Counted from the stretch's first letter, positions 14,828-19,570 are shown. The stretch: DNA of 64,000 nucleotides from Nitrospirota bacterium (GCA_963749655.1 CAVVOB010000014.1:54199-118198), one strand, 5' to 3'. The notes: a model not told the origin generated them from the letters alone. Made by a program: numbers and translations.

Positions 14828-15301
14828 CTACTTCAGTTCCCCGCGGATCTCCCCGCTCGGATACTTGTCCGTATGAACGTTCACGTAGGCGTCGCCGTCC
14901 TTGATCATCTTCAGAAGATCGTCAACCGTTTTCCCGGCAAGGGGGCCGACCAGGTCCTTATCCGTAATGGTTCCTTTTGCCAGCAATCCGCTGAACTTCC
15001 CTTCCTTCTTCGGCCCTGCAAAAAGTCCGACTACCGGCGGGCCTTCCACGCCTCTTTTGCCTGCATGGATATGGGCTGCCTTGGCATCTGCCAGATTTTT
15101 CACCTTGAGCTCATAAGTCAGCTCCTTGCCGTCCTTGCTCAGGGTAAGGATCTCCTCGCCGCTTGCCTTCGTCTTCACTGCCGGAACTTCCTCCTTGCCC
15201 GTCAATTTGGTCTTGAAATGACCGCCTGCTGCAGCCATTCCGAGCGACGTGGTAACGATTACCGCAAATAGGGCAAATAGCACTGCTTTAATGGTTTTCA
15301 T
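14828..15301 (-). CDS. secreted CHRD domain protein
   Basis: ATG 15299-15301 behind AAGGAGG. Signal peptide MKTIKAVLFALFAVIVTTSLGMAAA. AHIHAGKRGVEGPPV and YVNVHT are typical of CHRD. Confidence 0.7.
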   Translation of the reverse strand: MKTIKAVLFALFAVIVTTSLGMAAAGGHFKTKLTGKEEVPAVKTKASGEEILTLSKDGKELTYELKVKNLADAKAAHIHAGKRGVEGPPVVGLFAGPKKEGKFSGLLAKGTITDKDLVGPLAGKTVDDLLKMIKDGDAYVNVHTDKYPSGEIRGELK

Positions 15302-15419
15302 ATGATGTTCCTCCTTCATGGCAGAACGTACACTCCTGACGAATGCACTAAAACCCGCTGACCGCGCCGACGTCACGCGACTTTTTTCCGTCTTCGTCAA
15401 AAGTGGATATTCTGTTCTA

Positions 15420-15447
15420 ACTATATCTCGCCAGAAAATCATGTCAA
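15420..15447 (-). promoter_or_regulatory. candidate sigma70 promoter of the CHRD gene
   Basis: Reverse complement reads TTGACA-N16-TATAGT. It is divergent from P2. Confidence 0.4.
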
Positions 15448-15494
15448 GTTTGTCCTGTTTTGGTCGGATACAAAAGGCTTAGATGGCCATCCCT

Positions 15495-15550
15495 CTCCCC
15501 CAAAAATACCCTGTCGATTTTCTTGACAAAATCATCACTGTCTATATAAT
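15495..15550 (+). promoter_or_regulatory. sigma70-type promoter P2 with upstream TACCC direct repeat
   Basis: CTCCCCCAAAAATACCC (15495-15511), then N11, TTGACA (15523-15528), N16 and TATAAT (15545-15550). Confidence 0.6.
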
Positions 15551-15737
15551 CGAGGCAGTTCGATTTAATGATCGTTTCCTCACCGTATAGGTCCAACGGG
15601 ACCGCGCCCGGCTTCGCGACAATCTCCGTCGCAGGTCCCGTATCTTTTCTGAAGTGCATCCTGTTCCCCTCAGCGTGCGTCTAACTCGCCATAAACAGCA
15701 ATGCGCGCTTGCGCGCTACTCGACAGGAGAACATCGC

Positions 15738-16223
15738 ATGAGGACCGAAAATTATTCACGGCGGGAATTCTTAAAGACCTTCGCGCTGATATCGTCGGCG
15801 CCGCTCCTGGTCAACGTGCTTGCCGCGTGCAGTGATCCCGTGGCCGGTGCCGCATACGGACCCCCGCCGTACACCCAGGTCTCAGTGACCGGAATATACT
15901 TTCTCGACGCGCAGTCACATACCGTGAAGCTTGCGGACAATCAGAACGTGCCTGCCCACACGTCCTTTACCATCCAGTTCAACACTGCGATGAACATGGA
16001 TTCCGTTCTTACCGCGATAACGTTCGTTGACTCAGGCAACACTCCTGTTGCATTTGCCGCACTTGCGCAGGACGAGCGGACCATGGGGCTGACTCCGTCT
16101 GCCGATCTCGCGCACAACAGCACCTATACGCTGAGTGTGAACAATAACGCCGTGGATGCGAGTGGGAACTCACGGCTTCTTGTTGACGCGAATGCAACGG
16201 CAACGTTCAAGACCGGGGTCTGA
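15738..16223 (+). CDS. Tat-signal lipoprotein with a single Ig-like (SbsA/Big_5-type) domain, paralog A
   Basis: ATG 15738 behind AGGAGA. Consensus twin-arginine motif SRREFLK. Lipobox VLAACS. Its Ig-like region aligns with paralog B (HTSFTIQFNTAMNMDSV, YTLSVNNNA, ATFKTG). Confidence 0.75.
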   Translation: MRTENYSRREFLKTFALISSAPLLVNVLAACSDPVAGAAYGPPPYTQVSVTGIYFLDAQSHTVKLADNQNVPAHTSFTIQFNTAMNMDSVLTAITFVDSGNTPVAFAALAQDERTMGLTPSADLAHNSTYTLSVNNNAVDASGNSRLLVDANATATFKTGV

Positions 16224-16355
16224 AAGGACGGCGAGAGAAAACGTGTTGGTGTCTGCGACATCTGCGTAATCTGCGGAACAATATTTTCATGTTTTTCTGC
16301 AGTCCGCCGGCGCAAAAGTGACGTTGTTCAAATCGAACAGGGAGAGGCGATACCC

Positions 16356-17462
16356 GTGAACTCCATCGAGAAAAAAGTGCAGGCCCTTGAATCCTTCATC
16401 GAGCGCAAGGAGCAGCTCAAGAAGGACACTTCCCTGCGCTATCTTTTCTGGGAATCCACGCTCCGCTGCAATCTGAGCTGCCTCCACTGCGGCAGCGACT
16501 GCGTCCGCGACGACGCGAGCCAGGCAGCCGAGCTCGACGGGGAGACGATCAAACGCGAGCTCCACTCCATCGCCGGCCATTACGATCCGCGCCTGTGCAC
16601 CTTTGCGATCATCGGGGGCGAACCCCTTCTGCGCGACGACATCATCGGCGTGGGGGCCTTTGCAGCGGAGCTGGGATACAACTGGGGCATCACGACGAAC
16701 GGCATGCTCCTGAGCCGCGACAAGATCAGGCAGTTGAAGGACGCGAAGCTCCGGACGATCTCGGTGAGCCTGGACGGCCTTCCGTCTGACCATGACCGTC
16801 TGCGCTCCTGCAATGGCTCCTGGGATATCGTCACAACGGCGATCAAAAACCTTCTGGCGGACCGGTTCTTCTCCGTCTTCGACGTCATTTGCTGCGTCAG
16901 CAAGATCAACATCAACCGGCTCGGACCTTTTGTCGAAAGCCTGATCCAACTCGGCGTCCCGGCGGTCCGGTTCACACCCGTGTTCTCCCGCGGCAGAGCG
17001 GGCAGGAACAGGGACCTCATGCTGAGCAAAGATGATTACCAGAAACTGCTCCGCTTCATCGCGGAGCAGCGCGCGAAGCAGTCCGCGATTCGGATCACCC
17101 TGAGCGAGGAAGGTTACTGGGGCCCGGAATGGGAATGCGTGGTGCGCGATGAATTCCACTATTGCGGGTCGGGGATCATGATCGGCTCCATCCTGCACGA
17201 CGGCCGCGTCACCGGCTGCCCAAGCGTTTCCCGGAAGTTCATCGAGGGAAACATCAGGGAAACTCCCTTCGTGGATGTCTGGAAAAACCGCTTCACCAGG
17301 TACCGGAAGGACCGCAAGGAAACCTTCTCCGGTCTCTGCGGAAACTGCGAGCACTGGGACCTCTGCGAAGGCGGCGGGTTCCATCTTCTGGACCAGGACA
17401 ATGCCGCAGAGAGCTTTTGCTGCCTTGAAAAAATCGGCCAAAGGAGAAGATCGCATGAATAG
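16356..17462 (+). CDS. radical SAM enzyme with C-terminal SPASM/twitch Cys cluster
   Basis: GTG start behind GGGAGAGG. Radical SAM motif CNLSCLHC (Cx3Cx2C). C-terminal cysteines: YCGSG, GCPS, CGNCEHWDLCEGG, CC. Confidence 0.85.
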   Translation: MNSIEKKVQALESFIERKEQLKKDTSLRYLFWESTLRCNLSCLHCGSDCVRDDASQAAELDGETIKRELHSIAGHYDPRLCTFAIIGGEPLLRDDIIGVGAFAAELGYNWGITTNGMLLSRDKIRQLKDAKLRTISVSLDGLPSDHDRLRSCNGSWDIVTTAIKNLLADRFFSVFDVICCVSKININRLGPFVESLIQLGVPAVRFTPVFSRGRAGRNRDLMLSKDDYQKLLRFIAEQRAKQSAIRITLSEEGYWGPEWECVVRDEFHYCGSGIMIGSILHDGRVTGCPSVSRKFIEGNIRETPFVDVWKNRFTRYRKDRKETFSGLCGNCEHWDLCEGGGFHLLDQDNAAESFCCLEKIGQRRRSHE

Positions 17463-17949
17463 CGAAAATTATTCTCGGCGGGAGTTCCTCAGGACCTTCG
17501 CAATGATGTCGTCGGCGCCGCTCCTCGCAAGCATTCTTTCCGGGTGCGGTTCTTCCACCACCACGAATGAGAACAAAGTAATGTATGGTCCTTCACCTGT
17601 TCAGCCGGTTCTGGTAGTGGTAATGTCTTTCCTCGACGCGCAGTCATCTCCCGTTGAACTGTCGGGCAGCCGGAACGTGCCCGTTCATACGTCCTTTATC
17701 ATCCAGTTCAACACGGCAATGGACATGAATTCCGTCGCAGCGGCAATTTCTTTCGTTGACTCAGGTAGTAGCCCCGTCGTTTTTACTGCAAGCCCGCAGA
17801 GCGACTGGAGCATACAGGTTACCCCTTCTTCTGATCTGGCAAGCAACAGCGATTACACCCTGAGCGTGAATAATAACGCCATGAGCTCCGGCGGCAGCGG
17901 CCTCACGGTTGACGCAAAGTCAACCGCGACGTTCAAGACCGGGGCTTAA
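17455..17949 (+). CDS. Tat-signal lipoprotein with a single Ig-like domain, paralog B
   Basis: ATG 17455 overlaps the radical SAM stop by 8 nt. SRREFLR motif and lipobox ILSGCG. About half of its residues are identical to paralog A. The RBS region is also duplicated (GGAGAAgATCGCATGA versus GGAGAAcATCGCATGA). Confidence 0.75.
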   Translation: MNSENYSRREFLRTFAMMSSAPLLASILSGCGSSTTTNENKVMYGPSPVQPVLVVVMSFLDAQSSPVELSGSRNVPVHTSFIIQFNTAMDMNSVAAAISFVDSGSSPVVFTASPQSDWSIQVTPSSDLASNSDYTLSVNNNAMSSGGSGLTVDAKSTATFKTGA

Positions 17950-17967
17950 GAGGCAAAATCATATTTT

Positions 17968-18312
17968 ATGAAGGCGACCATCATAACGGTCATGCTTGGT
18001 ATACTGCTTTCGCTGCCGGCCCTTCTCTCTGCAGCCGGCGAAACTGCCGTCGAAGCAGCGCCCCCGGTCGAGCTCTTCATCGCCGACTGGTGTCCCAACT
18101 GCCGCAAGGCCATGGACTTTTTGCGCTCGCACGGCATCGAGTTCGTCGCCTATGACGTTGAAAAGAACGAGACGGCCGCTCGCAGGAAGAAGCAGCTCGA
18201 CAAACGCCGGCTGGTGCCTTTTGCGATCATCAACGGAAAAAAAGTCAGCGGGTTTTCCGAGAATGAATACCTGAAGGCGCTGGGGATTAATGAAACTCCT
18301 CAAAAGAGATAA
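17968..18312 (+). CDS. secreted glutaredoxin-like thiol-disulfide protein
   Basis: Signal peptide MKATIITVMLGILLSLPALLSAAG. CPNC active-site motif in a glutaredoxin-sized fold (FIADWCPNCRKAMDFL). Confidence 0.7.
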   Translation: MKATIITVMLGILLSLPALLSAAGETAVEAAPPVELFIADWCPNCRKAMDFLRSHGIEFVAYDVEKNETAARRKKQLDKRRLVPFAIINGKKVSGFSENEYLKALGINETPQKR

Positions 18313-18330
18313 GTCCGCCCTGACTGAAAC

Positions 18331-18356
18331 CTGGATTCCTGCCGTCGCAGGAATGA
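18331..18356. repeat. half copy of the GGAATCCAG/GTCATTCC hairpin element
   Basis: CTGGATTCCTGCCGTCGCAGGAATGA. Related to the full element at 56803-56874. Confidence 0.5.
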
Positions 18357-18440
18357 AAAGCTGATGGTGTACCCCGGCTTGTCACGTATGATTCGTTTTT
18401 GTTTCGTTTTATTGAGGCGAGTCGGTCATTTCAGTGTTTT

Positions 18441-18929
18441 ATGCTAACCGTTCTTATAAGAAAACAGCGTTTCCTGTCCGCACTCTGCGCACTCTCACTC
18501 CTGCTCCTGACCGTGGGAACCGCAGCGGCAGACAGTCTGCGCGCCTTCACGAGCGACGGCTGCAGCCTGTTCCCTGACGGAGAACTGAAGGACCGGGCGC
18601 AGTGGTGTGATTGCTGCCTGATCCATGACATCGCCTACTGGCAGGGCGGCACCAGCGAGGACCGCCAACGGGCCGATGAAGCGCTCCGGAAGTGCGTGAT
18701 CGATCGCACCAAGAGCGAAGCCCTGGCGGACCTGATGTACGACGGGGTCCGGGCAGGCGGGCACCCTGCTTTCCCCACCTGGTATCGCTGGGCATACGGA
18801 TGGCCGTATGGCAGGGGATACAAACAGCTGACTGAACAGGAACAGACGCAGGTCCGGGAGAAGATCGATGCCTATCAACGCGATCATCCTGATGGGTATT
18901 GCATCGAGCAGCACAAAACGACAAAGTAA
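18441..18929 (+). CDS. secreted protein with a PLA2-like CC-x2-HD-x2-Y motif
   Basis: ATG 18441. Signal peptide ...LLLLTVGTAAA. CDCCLIHDIAYWQGG resembles the phospholipase A2 catalytic His-Asp/Tyr signature. The family assignment rests on this motif only. Confidence 0.5.
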   Translation: MLTVLIRKQRFLSALCALSLLLLTVGTAAADSLRAFTSDGCSLFPDGELKDRAQWCDCCLIHDIAYWQGGTSEDRQRADEALRKCVIDRTKSEALADLMYDGVRAGGHPAFPTWYRWAYGWPYGRGYKQLTEQEQTQVREKIDAYQRDHPDGYCIEQHKTTK

Positions 18930-18961
18930 CGGGCGGCCTGTCAACCGCAGGAGGAAAAAGA

Positions 18962-19570
18962 ATGAACAGACTCTGTATGACCATACACGCGAACCGGTAT
19001 CGGGCCGCGATCATCGCGCTGTCGGCGCTCTTCTTGTGCGCTGCCTTCAGCTCCGGCGTATATGCAGACGCGGCGGGTGCAAACCGCCCTGCGACATGGG
19101 CTGCGCCGGTTTCCGTAAAAGGCGCGCCGAACCTGCACAAGGTTAACGACGGACTCTACCGCAGCGCACAGCCCACAAAAGAGGGAATGAAAAACCTGGA
19201 GAGGCTGGGCATCCGCACGGTCATCAACCTCCGCGCTTTCCATTCAGACTCAGATGAGCTCAAAGGGACAACACTGTTGAACTCGGAGTTGAGCATCAAG
19301 ACCTGGCACATCGAGGATGAGGATGTCGTCAAGGTCCTTCGGATCCTTGCGCACAAGGAAAACGGCCCCTTTCTGATCCACTGCCAGCACGGCGCCGACC
19401 GGACCGGCGTCATGTCCGCGATGTACCGGATCGTGGTCCAGGGCTGGTCCAAGGAGGACGCGATCGACGAAATGGTGAATGGTGGATACGGGTTCCATTC
19501 CGTCTGGTCGAACGTGATCGACTATGTGCGCAAGGTTGATATCGACAGGATCAAAAAGCAAACAGAATAG
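18962..19570 (+). CDS. secreted CX5R protein-tyrosine/dual-specificity-type phosphatase
   Basis: ATG behind AGGAGG. Signal peptide present. LYRSAQP and HCQHGADRTG (CX5R P-loop) resemble atypical DSP/Y_phosphatase families. Confidence 0.7.
   Translation: MNRLCMTIHANRYRAAIIALSALFLCAAFSSGVYADAAGANRPATWAAPVSVKGAPNLHKVNDGLYRSAQPTKEGMKNLERLGIRTVINLRAFHSDSDELKGTTLLNSELSIKTWHIEDEDVVKVLRILAHKENGPFLIHCQHGADRTGVMSAMYRIVVQGWSKEDAIDEMVNGGYGFHSVWSNVIDYVRKVDIDRIKKQTE

What the first reader, a model, noticed from the sequence alone, without database searches (positions are those of the whole stretch)
15495..18312. Radical SAM/SPASM enzyme sandwiched between two paralogous Tat-exported single-Ig lipoproteins, under a TACCC-repeat promoter
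Downstream of P2 lie four genes:
- A 161-aa lipoprotein with a textbook twin-arginine signal (SRREFLK) and one SbsA/Big_5-like domain.
- A Cx3Cx2C radical SAM enzyme with a C-terminal SPASM-type Cys cluster.
- A second copy of the lipoprotein, whose start overlaps the enzyme stop by 8 nt.
- A secreted CPNC glutaredoxin-like protein.

The duplication includes the ribosome-binding region (GGAGAAnATCGCATGA at 15727 and 17444).

Tat export of a cofactor-less Ig domain is unusual. It would make sense if the protein is folded or modified in the cytoplasm. SPASM enzymes are known to modify peptides and small protein subunits before export, for example QhpD on QhpC and anSME on sulfatases.

The mature lipoproteins contain no Cys apart from the lipobox, so any chemistry would not be thioether formation.
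Basis: partly seen in the sequence, partly recalled or inferred. Interest (0 to 1): 0.75.

Follow-up and report, generated by a model that had tools for sequence, protein, structure and literature searches.

The report
Radical SAM enzyme with Tyr-Gly-tagged lipoproteins
A radical SAM/SPASM enzyme sits between two exported lipoproteins that carry a short Tyr-Gly-Pro tag in their flexible tether; the same enzyme-plus-tagged-partner pairing recurs across many bacterial phyla, so the enzyme most likely modifies that tag chemically before export.

Summary
The four genes are real and mostly as described:
- lipoA, 15738-16223
- rSAM/SPASM, 16356-17462
- lipoB, 17455-17949, with an 8-nt overlap onto the enzyme gene
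- a secreted CPNC glutaredoxin-like gene, 17968-18312

A perfect sigma-70 promoter lies at 15523-15550. No TACCC repeat exists.

The enzyme is a divergent relative of NCBIfam TIGR04133 "rSAM_w_lipo". It scores 304.6 bits, below the cutoff of 425. In Bacteroidales, TIGR04133 is paired with TIGR04134 "radical SAM-associated putative lipoprotein". That pairing was defined by computation, and I found no experimental paper on it.

In loci fetched through the enzyme, an exported partner gene lies next to it in about 9 of 10 cases. The partner's folded domain varies: Big_5 here, Pal/OmpA, TIGR04134, an unknown domain, or none. So does its export route (Tat or Sec, lipobox or not). What stays constant is one or more X-Y-G-(x)-P motifs after the signal peptide: AAYGPPP in lipoA, VMYGPSP in lipoB. 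In the lipoA model the motif lies in the disordered tether.

XYG is also the recognition motif of tyramine-excising spliceases. That chemistry is my leading guess (about 0.3) and is untested. The "sandwich" layout and the glutaredoxin gene are not conserved.

Verdict: a new variant of a known but uncharacterised system, with a clear test.

The parts
15523..15550 (+). Sigma-70-type promoter, TTGACA-16 nt-TATAAT, about 188 nt upstream of the lipoA start codon
   Evidence: 12 of 12 consensus matches. No Rfam element lies in the long leader.
15738..16223 (+). lipoA: a 161-aa Tat-signal lipoprotein with one Big_5 Ig-like domain. It is the extra upstream copy of the partner gene.
   Evidence: ORF and translation. 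Big_5 E = 3.6e-14. In the AF2 model, residues 19-41 are disordered and the beta-sandwich starts at about residue 48. The fold is a generic Ig-like one.
15756..15776 (+). Twin-arginine motif S-R-R-E-F-L-K of lipoA. It is followed by the family-conserved F-L-x-x-F-A stretch.
   Evidence: Read from the sequence. Alignment of partner signal peptides. A 52%-identical homologue carries Pfam TAT_signal PF10518.
15819..15830 (+). Lipobox L-A-A-C31 of lipoA
   Evidence: Read from the sequence. C31 is invariant in the partner alignment.
15855..15869 (+). Y40-G-P-P-P: the proposed modification motif of lipoA, preceded by A-A
   Evidence: Y40, G41 and P42 are invariant among homologues. The motif lies in the low-confidence tether just before strand 1. 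It recurs in partners of the enzyme across phyla.
16261..16287 (+). Weak terminator-like hairpin plus T-rich tail between lipoA and the rSAM gene. It may act as an attenuator or set stoichiometry.
   Evidence: Pattern scan only: 6-pair stem with 3 G-C pairs. The number of such sites in the region is not above the shuffled expectation.
16356..17462 (+). Radical SAM/SPASM enzyme, 368 aa, with no RiPP-recognition (RRE) domain. It belongs to the TIGR04133-like family.
   Evidence: Radical_SAM plus SPASM. TIGR04133 scores 304.6 bits at E = 7.6e-91, and the next-best family scores 125 bits. Homologues are 57-81% identical across phyla. AF2 gives pTM 0.82, an N-terminal helix at residues 3-24, and no winged-helix domain. 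The nearest solved structures are SkfB, SuiB, anSME, PqqE and ChlB.
16467..16490 (+). C38-x3-C42-x2-C45, the site of the radical SAM [4Fe-4S] cluster. An invariant C49 follows, giving the family signature C[LR]HCGSDC.
   Evidence: Invariant columns. Pattern used.
17163..17420 (+). SPASM region: C270-x12-G-x4-C288, C328-x2-C331-x5-C337-x3-G341, then C355. The fourth Cys of the canonical CX2CX5CX3C is replaced by an invariant Gly (family signature HWxLCEGGG).
   Evidence: Invariant columns. SPASM Pfam hit at residues 278-332. The comparison with the canonical SPASM pattern is from memory.
17455..17949 (+). lipoB: a 164-aa Tat-signal lipoprotein with a Big_5 domain. It is translationally coupled to the enzyme through an 8-nt overlap and holds the ancestral partner position.
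   Evidence: The same 8-nt overlap of rSAM and Big_5 partner occurs in L084, L085, L086 and L087.
17584..17598 (+). Y44-G-P-S-P: the proposed modification motif of lipoB, preceded by V-M
17968..18312 (+). Secreted glutaredoxin-like protein (CPNC). It starts 18 nt after lipoB and is probably co-transcribed, but it is not a conserved member of the system.
   Evidence: Glutaredoxin Pfam E = 5.3e-11. YruB-family hit below the cutoff. No homologue in any of the 91 related loci.

Best explanation
This is a two-component protein-maturation system.

The proposed sequence of events:
1. The radical SAM/SPASM enzyme (16356-17462) acts in the cytoplasm on the unprocessed precursors of the two flanking lipoproteins.
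2. Its target is the short X-Y-G-(x)-P motif: A-Y40-G-P-P in lipoA and M-Y44-G-P-S-P in lipoB. The motif lies in the flexible tether between the lipidated Cys and the Ig-like domain.
3. The modified proteins are exported by the Tat pathway, lipidated at C31, and anchored in the envelope.

The conserved signal peptide (R-R-x-F-L-x-x-F-A) probably also serves as the docking or "leader" element for the enzyme, which has no RRE domain.

What is shown: the gene anatomy; the family-wide linkage of enzyme and partner; the motif; and the motif's position in a disordered segment.

What is inferred: that the motif is the substrate site; that modification comes before export; and the chemistry.

My committed guess for the chemistry is splicease-type excision of a tyramine unit from Tyr. 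[quoted passage not shown] I put about 0.3 on this. Another Tyr-centred reaction takes most of the remainder: epimerisation, beta-hydroxylation, or a Tyr cross-link. The confidence given below is for the general statement that the enzyme modifies its partners at the YG motif.
For: 1. Family. The best NCBIfam match is the full-length TIGR04133 "rSAM_w_lipo" (E = 7.6e-91), against 1e-36 or weaker for every other SPASM family. Canonical Bacteroidales members score 578 bits, and their neighbours match TIGR04134 "radical SAM-associated putative lipoprotein" at 75-161 bits.

2. Linkage.
- By a strict automatic filter, 71 of 88 loci have an adjacent same-strand ORF with YG(P|xP). The rate is 8 of 296 (2.7%) for distant genes in the same loci.
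- Counting only the 83 loci fetched through the enzyme, the figure is 66 of 83.
- Nine of the 17 misses do have a partner that the filter skipped.
- Four more phylum-diverse loci all have one.
- Every lipoA homologue with context lies directly after the enzyme with the same 8-nt overlap.

3. The motif emerges without being asked for. MYG, YGP, EYG and YGT are the most enriched tripeptides next to the enzyme, at 27x, 6.7x, 6.6x and 5.4x.

4. The motif is independent of the folded domain:
- Big_5 (window, L082-L088, L091)
- Pal/OmpA (L002)
- the TIGR04134 domain (Bacteroidales)
- an unknown domain of about 200 aa (L089)
- no domain at all, or Pro-rich repeats carrying 3-5 motif copies (L001, L005, L006, L027, L060, L074)

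5. AF2 places Y40-G41 in the segment with pLDDT below 50, just before the first strand.

6. Splicease parallel.
- Spliceases are rSAM/SPASM enzymes that act on XYG (PMC11414181).
- The PlpA2 splice tag is PIRP-LYGLP-I, which is also YGxP (PMC10533398).
- Binary spliceases lack an RRE partner and use a leader helix instead.
- TIGR04103 is the highest-scoring peptide-maturase family after TIGR04133. From memory, it is the PlpX family.

7. No RRE. The enzyme has only a 24-residue N-terminal helix before the core. It aligns over its full length with anSME, another RRE-less enzyme that modifies proteins.
Against: - There is no experimental evidence of any modification.
- The enzyme is unusually conserved for a peptide maturase, at 57-81% identity across phyla.
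- Its next-best family matches are the tetrapyrrole enzymes AhbD and NirJ.
- One well-flanked close homologue, L081 (77% identity), has no partner nearby.
- Two Bacteroidales loci, L014 and L019, have Y-M-A in place of Y-G.
- Against splicing specifically: the score against TIGR04103 (119.8 bits, cutoff 725) is no better than generic SPASM similarity. Glu, the commonest residue before Tyr in the Bacteroidales partners, resembles the DYG site that the splicease RcsX left unmodified (PMC11626197).
Confidence: 0.7

Rival explanations
1. The enzyme does modify the partner proteins, but within the folded Ig-like domain or at another residue. On this view the YG motif is only a recognition or structural element.
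For: Big_5 partners are the rule in the closest clade. Some residues inside the domain are invariant among near homologues.
Against: Across the family the domain is replaced by unrelated ones or is missing. Domain-less partners as short as 48-95 aa contain little besides the signal peptide and the motif (L001, L073, L074). The motif is repeated 3-5 times in low-complexity partners.
Confidence: 0.1
2. The enzyme makes or alters a small molecule or cofactor, in the manner of AhbD or NirJ. The neighbouring exported proteins bind or use that product, so the gene linkage reflects a shared pathway rather than an enzyme and its substrate.
For: AhbD, NirJ2 and AhbC are among the next-best family hits, at 115-125 bits. 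The very high conservation across phyla is typical of metabolic enzymes.
Against: No other biosynthetic genes are conserved around the enzyme. The partners share no folded domain that could form a common binding site. The only shared features are the export signal and the YG motif. The overlapping stop and start codons indicate translational coupling. TIGR04133 outscores the tetrapyrrole families by about 180 bits.
Confidence: 0.1
3. The adjacency has no functional meaning. The YG-Pro stretch is just a common linker composition in exported proteins, and the rSAM gene happens to lie nearby.
For: Pro-rich tethers are common in lipoproteins. The motif is short.
Against: The rate is 2.7% in control genes against at least 80% in neighbours of the enzyme. 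MYG is enriched 27-fold. The linkage persists across at least seven phylum-level groups with different flanking genes. NCBIfam curators reached the same pairing independently.
Confidence: 0.03

Closest known systems
NCBIfam TIGR04133 (rSAM_w_lipo) / TIGR04134 (radical SAM-associated putative lipoprotein) pair of Bacteroidales
   Same: - The enzymes are homologous over their full length, at 37-41% identity.
- They share the signatures C[LR]HCGSDC and HWxLCEGGG.
- Each has an adjacent same-strand exported lipoprotein.
- The partners share the X-Y-G-x-P motif a few residues after the lipobox Cys.
- One to three partner paralogues per enzyme is common in both.
   Different: - The window enzyme scores 304.6 bits, below the 425 cutoff.
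- Its lipoproteins do not match TIGR04134 even at E = 10.
- The partner domain here is Big_5.
- Export here is by Tat rather than Sec.
- The residue before Tyr is small or hydrophobic (A, M) rather than mostly E or M.
- The known family is itself only a computational definition. My literature searches found no experimental paper.
Tyramine spliceases and spliceotides (PlpX/PlpY/PlpA, RhaX/RhaA, RcsX, RasX)
   Same: - Both are rSAM/SPASM enzymes.
- The substrate motif is X-Y-G, often followed by x-P (the PlpA2 tag is LYGLP).
- The motif can occur several times in one precursor.
- Proteins as well as peptides can be substrates.
- Binary systems work without an RRE protein and use an N-terminal helix of the precursor.
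   Different: - The window enzyme is not a member of TIGR04103 (119.8 bits against a cutoff of 725).
- The precursors here carry export signals and lipoboxes, not Nif11 or NHLP leaders.
- No protease/exporter gene is present.
- The products would stay attached to a protein and a lipid anchor.
- The chemistry is untested here.
- The survey that typed 939 predicted splicease systems (cited and summarised) is not in the library. I therefore cannot tell whether this family was already included.
Anaerobic sulfatase-maturating enzyme (anSME/AtsB)
   Same: - It is an RRE-less rSAM/SPASM enzyme of about 370 aa.
- It modifies one residue in a short Pro-containing motif of a whole protein, in the cytoplasm, before export.
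- It aligns structurally over its full length with the model of the window enzyme.
   Different: - TIGR03942 scores only 64 bits against a cutoff of 349.
- The target motif C/S-x-P/A-x-R and the sulfatase domain are absent.
- anSME substrates are enzymes that need formylglycine. Here the partners have no catalytic domain.
QhpD/QhpC, MftC/MftA and PqqE/PqqA (SPASM maturases of small subunits or peptides, several of them Tyr-directed)
   Same: - SPASM enzymes encoded next to their protein or peptide substrate.
- MftC and PqqE both act on a Tyr residue (from memory).
   Different: - The family scores are low: TIGR03906 52.7, TIGR03962 98.4 and TIGR02109 61.2 bits, all far below their cutoffs.
- There are no Cys residues for thioethers, no C-terminal Tyr, and no Glu-x3-Tyr.
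- No PqqD-like RRE is present.

Membership tests
TIGR04133/TIGR04134 rSAM-lipoprotein system | The enzyme scores above the TIGR04133 curated cutoff (425 bits) | tested here: not met
   304.6 bits at E = 7.6e-91. It is the best hit by about 180 bits and spans the full length (profile positions 2-348 of 350), but it is below the cutoff. The Phocaeicola control scores 578 bits.
TIGR04133/TIGR04134 rSAM-lipoprotein system | The adjacent lipoprotein matches TIGR04134 | tested here: not met
   lipoA and lipoB give no hit even at E = 10. Bacteroidales partners score 75-161 bits against a cutoff of 39.8.
TIGR04133/TIGR04134 rSAM-lipoprotein system | A same-strand, adjacent gene for an exported lipoprotein | tested here: met
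   lipoA lies 132 nt upstream and lipoB overlaps by 8 nt. Both have a signal peptide and a lipobox.
TIGR04133/TIGR04134 rSAM-lipoprotein system | Shared sequence signatures: C[LR]HCGSDC and HWxLCEGGG in the enzyme, X-Y-G-x-P after the lipobox in the partner | tested here: met
   The window enzyme has CLHCGSDC and HWDLCEGGG. The partners have AAYGPPP and VMYGPSP. Bacteroidales partners have EYGTPS and similar. I derived these signatures here; they are not part of the curated family definition.
Tyramine spliceases (spliceotide maturases) | Radical SAM core plus a SPASM auxiliary-cluster domain | tested here: met
   Pfam Radical_SAM and SPASM.
Tyramine spliceases (spliceotide maturases) | Membership of the PlpX family model (TIGR04103 / IPR026482) | tested here: not met
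   119.8 bits against a cutoff of 725. Later-described binary splicease types may lie outside this model, and I could not test that.
Tyramine spliceases (spliceotide maturases) | One or more X-Y-G motifs in the co-encoded precursor | tested here: met
   The motifs are A-Y-G in lipoA and M-Y-G in lipoB. The motif is conserved and often repeated across partners.
Tyramine spliceases (spliceotide maturases) | A Nif11/NHLP-type leader, or a PlpY-like RRE partner (type I systems) | tested here: not met
   No such domains occur in the four genes. The partners carry Tat or Sec signal peptides instead. Binary systems without a Y protein are known.
Tyramine spliceases (spliceotide maturases) | [quoted passage not shown] | not testable with these tools
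   This needs co-expression and MS/MS. The value is taken from PMC11626197.
Anaerobic sulfatase-maturating enzymes | TIGR03942 membership and a C/S-x-P/A-x-R motif in a sulfatase partner | tested here: not met
   64 bits against a cutoff of 349. The partners are Big_5 proteins with no Cys or Ser motif of that form.
Tat-exported lipoproteins | The twin-arginine consensus S/T-R-R-x-F-L-K, followed by a hydrophobic region and a lipobox Cys | tested here: met
   lipoA has SRREFLK...LAAC and lipoB has SRREFLR...LSGC. The motif is conserved in homologues. PF10518 is recorded for homologue P0125. Actual export by Tat has not been tested.

The most novel reading that the evidence does not exclude
The whole TIGR04133-like family, including the gut Bacteroidales members and this Tat-linked branch, consists of protein spliceases. 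On this reading they excise tyramine from X-Y-G motifs in the tethers of exported lipoproteins and install electrophilic alpha-ketoamide residues. Ketoamides are a protease-inhibitor pharmacophore, and here they would sit on envelope-anchored proteins. The signal peptide would serve a second role as the maturase's leader. This would be a native case of backbone splicing of full-size, lipid-anchored proteins rather than of secreted peptides.
Probability: 0.3. Interest if true: 0.85.

Novelty: new variant of a known kind. Interest (0 to 1): 0.62.

Why it matters
The TIGR04133/TIGR04134 pairing is widespread, including in common human-gut Bacteroidales, yet my literature searches found no assigned chemistry or function for it.

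This window shows that the pairing reaches well beyond Bacteroidetes. It also shows that the folded domain of the partner is irrelevant. The constant features are an export signal and a Tyr-Gly-(x)-Pro tag in a disordered tether.

That narrows a vague "rSAM next to a lipoprotein" annotation down to a specific residue pair. A single co-expression and mass-spectrometry experiment can test it.

If the chemistry is splicease-like, bacteria would be displaying ketoamide warheads on their envelope proteins. That bears on protease defence and on host-microbe and microbe-microbe interactions. It would also offer compact new tags for protein engineering. If the chemistry is something else, it is a new Tyr-directed radical SAM modification of proteins.

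Tried and rejected
- **TACCC-repeat promoter.** No repeat was found. The promoter itself is a perfect sigma-70 consensus.
- **5' leader RNA element.** No Rfam match in 15400-18500.
- **Glutaredoxin or DsbA as a system component.** The window's glutaredoxin-like protein has no homologue in 91 loci. The DsbA-like neighbour in L084/L085 has no signal peptide and no CxxC. Rejected.
- **Peptidase_C1 upstream of the enzyme in L084 as a partner.** It is cytoplasmic, and its only YG lies within its N-terminal region, with no signal peptide before it. Not a partner.
- **BLAST of lipoA/lipoB against the 80 genome loci.** It found nothing. This first suggested that the pairing was not conserved. Inspecting the neighbours showed partners with different domains but the same motif.
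- **Foldseek of the lipoA model.** It gave only generic Ig-like matches such as SbsC, Ldt BIg and CopC.
- **PDB sequence and fold searches with the enzyme.** They place it among the peptide- and protein-modifying SPASM and twitch enzymes, but they cannot tell the chemistry apart.
- **Literature.** I found no paper on TIGR04133 or on the rSAM-associated lipoprotein. The single TIGR04134 hit was a T9SS review, which I did not open. The key splicease survey (Scott et al., Chem 2022) is not held.


Full report
**1. What is in the window**

Four co-directional genes follow a 12/12 sigma-70 consensus promoter, TTGACA-16-TATAAT, at 15523-15550.

| Gene | Coordinates | Size | Main features |
|---|---|---|---|
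| lipoA | 15738-16223 | 161 aa | Tat signal, lipobox, Big_5 domain |
| rSAM/SPASM enzyme | 16356-17462 | 368 aa | CX3CX2C, C-terminal SPASM Cys cluster |
| lipoB | 17455-17949 | 164 aa | Tat signal, lipobox, Big_5 domain |
| Glutaredoxin-like | 17968-18312 | 114 aa | signal peptide, CPNC |

- Pfam confirms Big_5, Radical_SAM plus SPASM, Big_5 and Glutaredoxin in that order.
- Both lipoproteins begin with a textbook twin-arginine motif (SRREFLK in lipoA, SRREFLR in lipoB). Each has a lipobox ending at C31 and no other cysteine.
- The two are 58% identical over their full length.
- They share the 16-nt block GGAGAAnATCGCATGA around the start codon, at 15726 and 17443.
- The lipoB start codon lies 8 nt before the end of the rSAM stop codon.
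- The "TACCC repeat" in the finding's title could not be found. There is one TACCC at 15507-15511 and no repeat family.
- The 188-nt leader has no Rfam match.

**2. What the enzyme is**

- Against NCBIfam, the enzyme's best match by far is TIGR04133 "rSAM_w_lipo": E = 7.6e-91, 304.6 bits, full length. This is below the curated cutoff of 425.
- Every other SPASM family scores 125 bits or less. These include AhbD, the Nif11-class maturase 3 (TIGR04103), NirJ, MftC, anSME, PqqE and QhpD.
- Homologues are abundant and strikingly conserved, at 57-81% identity. They are labelled Nitrospirota, Deltaproteobacteria, Calditrichota, Chloroflexi, Alpha- and Betaproteobacteria.
- A second tier at 37-41% identity is mostly Bacteroidales and Fibrobacteres.
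- A Phocaeicola member of that tier scores 578 bits on TIGR04133. Its neighbour scores 139-161 bits on TIGR04134, "radical SAM-associated putative lipoprotein".
- The window therefore holds a divergent branch of a pairing that NCBIfam curators had already noticed in Bacteroidetes. My searches found no experimental paper on it.

Enzyme anatomy:
- The AF2 model (pTM 0.82) shows a single long helix at residues 3-24 before the barrel. There is no winged-helix RRE domain.
- The nearest solved structures are the peptide- and protein-modifying enzymes SkfB, SuiB, anSME, PqqE and ChlB. The RRE-less anSME aligns over its full length.
- The SPASM cysteine pattern is one residue short of canonical. In CX2CX5CX3C the last Cys is an invariant Gly, giving the family signature HWxLCEGGG.
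- C49, C179 and C180 are additional invariant cysteines. The comparison with the canonical pattern is from memory.

**3. The partner proteins**

BLAST with lipoA and lipoB found nothing in the 80 genome loci. Inspecting the neighbours told a different story. Almost every locus has one to three small exported proteins directly beside the enzyme on the same strand, but their folded domains differ:

| Partner domain | Where seen |
|---|---|
| Big_5 | window clade, a Chloroflexi locus and others |
| Pal/OmpA-like | Telmatospirillum (L002) |
| TIGR04134 domain | Bacteroidales |
| Unknown, about 200 aa, three tandem copies | Calditrichota (L089) |
| None: short proteins or Pro-rich low-complexity proteins | L001, L005, L006, L027, L060, L074, L003/L090 |

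The export signal also varies:
- Tat plus lipobox
- Tat without a Cys
- a Sec lipobox (Bacteroidales)
- a Sec signal with a signal-peptidase-I site

The invariant feature is a motif X-Y-G-(x)-P located 0-70 residues after the signal peptide, often in several copies.
- Examples are AAYGPPP and VMYGPSP here, three copies of VYGPPP in L005, four copies of [EV]YGVEP in L088, and EYGTPS in Bacteroidales.
- The residue before Tyr is E, M, L, V, K, C or A.
- Pro occupies position +3 in 73 of 87 distinct sites.

**4. Is this more than chance?**

- A strict automatic criterion (same strand, gap of 200 nt or less, YG followed by P or xP) is met at 71 of 88 loci. It is met by 8 of 296 (2.7%) control genes more than 2 kb away in the same loci.
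- Leaving out the window and the four loci fetched through the lipoprotein, the count is 66 of 83.
- Of the 17 misses:
  - nine have a partner that the filter skipped, because of a larger gap, an overlapping start or a contig end (L005, L006, L016, L021, L043, L059, L061, L064, L082);
  - four are cut by contig ends (L008, L031, L018, L029);
  - L014 and L019 carry a Y-M-A variant;
  - L049 has VYGVG;
  - only L081 (77% identity) is well flanked and has no partner.
- Four further loci chosen for phylum diversity all have a partner.
- An enumeration with no motif supplied, over all frames flanking the enzyme, ranks MYG (27x), YGP (6.7x), EYG (6.6x) and YGT (5.4x) as the most enriched tripeptides.
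- In the other direction, every lipoA homologue with usable context lies immediately after the enzyme with the same 8-nt overlap.
- Within the 64-kb window, only lipoA and lipoB combine an export signal with the motif.

**5. Where the motif sits**

- AF2 of lipoA (mean pLDDT 79) gives a confident Ig-like sandwich from about residue 48.
- pLDDT is below 50 for residues 19-41.
- Y40-G41 therefore lies in the flexible tether just before the first strand.
- The fold itself is a generic Ig-like one.

**6. Mechanistic reading**

The simplest account of a domain-independent, repeatable, disordered motif tied to a SPASM enzyme is that the motif is the enzyme's substrate site.

Radical SAM enzymes are cytoplasmic, so modification must come before export. 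This fits the Tat signals kept throughout the clade with 56% identity or more, including on partners with no folded domain (L005). There, Tat cannot be explained by a need to export a folded domain.

The signal peptides show conservation beyond the Tat consensus, in the form x-F-L-x-x-[FYW]-A. This stretch survives in two Burkholderiales loci that have lost the RR pair. Bacteroidales partners share their own signal-peptide signature, LLGF-x-x-C, and LGF is 3.5-fold enriched. I infer that the signal peptide also acts as the enzyme's docking element. This would parallel the leader helix that activates binary spliceases (PMC11414181). It remains an inference.

**7. Chemistry**

X-Y-G is exactly the site used by tyramine spliceases.
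- One natural splice tag, PIRP-LYGLP-I, even has the YGxP form.
- Splicing works on full proteins. In binary systems it needs no RRE protein.
- Spliceotides tested in vitro inhibit serine and cysteine proteases.

No conserved cross-link partner residue accompanies the motif here. The invariant Gly suggests chemistry at the backbone.

Against this:
- The enzyme is not a member of the PlpX model (119.8 bits against a cutoff of 725).
- Glu is the commonest residue before Tyr overall, mainly in the Bacteroidales partners. An acidic D-Y-G site was not processed by one characterised splicease.

I put tyramine splicing at about 0.3. Other Tyr-centred radical chemistry takes most of the remainder. The general claim, that the enzyme modifies its partners at the YG motif, I put at about 0.7.

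**8. What is not part of the system**

- The glutaredoxin-like gene is probably co-transcribed, since the gap is 18 nt. It has no homologue in any related locus.
- The DsbA-like and Peptidase_C1 neighbours in L084 are cytoplasmic and unrelated.
- The lipoprotein-enzyme-lipoprotein "sandwich" is specific to this window. lipoB holds the ancestral, translationally coupled position. lipoA is an extra copy that took 16 nt of the ribosome-binding region with it.

**9. Novelty and verdict**

It is also not experimentally resolved.
- The window's branch fails both curated models, uses Tat export, and uses a different partner domain.
- The family-wide YG tether motif gives the system a concrete target that can be tested.
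- The large splicease survey mined YG-rich neighbours of all SPASM proteins (as summarised). It is not in the library, so I could not check whether it already included this family. That uncertainty lowers the novelty claim.
- I classify the finding as a new variant of a known, uncharacterised kind, with interest 0.62.

Noticed in passing
window 17337-17378 (rSAM residues 328-341); alignment A2: The SPASM motif lacks the fourth Cys of CX2CX5CX3C. An invariant Gly takes its place (HWxLCEGGG). C49, C179 and C180 are extra invariant cysteines. One auxiliary cluster may therefore have an unusual ligand or an open coordination site.
   Followed up: partly
L081:5001-6125: This close homologue (77% identity) is the only well-flanked locus with no YG partner nearby. 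Its signature reads CEGEG instead of CEGGG, and the flanking DNA is AT-rich with no long ORFs. It may be an orphan or a decaying copy.
   Followed up: partly
L014:4593-4988 and L019 (about 1-330): Here the Bacteroidales partners carry C-L-A-Q-Y-M-A in place of the Y-G motif. This natural variant could show what the enzyme really needs.
   Followed up: no
L084:2004-2801: A cytoplasmic papain-like Peptidase_C1 gene lies 13 nt upstream of the rSAM gene in one close relative. C1A proteases occur in some RiPP clusters (PMC10885120). It is absent from the window.
   Followed up: partly
window 15702-15717: A tandem TGCGCGCT TGCGCGCT, which forms a GC-only hairpin, lies about 10 nt upstream of the lipoA ribosome-binding site. 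It could affect translation or mRNA stability.
   Followed up: no
window 14828-15442 (- strand) and 15420-15447: A secreted CHRD-domain protein (Pfam E = 3.7e-29) is transcribed divergently from an 11/12 sigma-70-like promoter. That promoter lies back to back with the lipoA promoter.
   Followed up: no
window 18899-19570; L087:372-1367: A DSP/Y_phosphatase2-type phosphatase gene lies near the rSAM locus in both the window and relative L087. This is probably lineage synteny rather than shared function. The adjacent 176-aa Cys-rich ORF at 18399-18929 has no Pfam match.
   Followed up: no
L003:6103-6520 and L090:3604-3993: These Burkholderiales partners have lost the twin arginines (QGKFLLRYA and VDPFLKKYA) but keep the F-L-x-x-Y-A stretch. 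This suggests that part of the signal peptide is conserved for a reason other than Tat targeting.
   Followed up: partly
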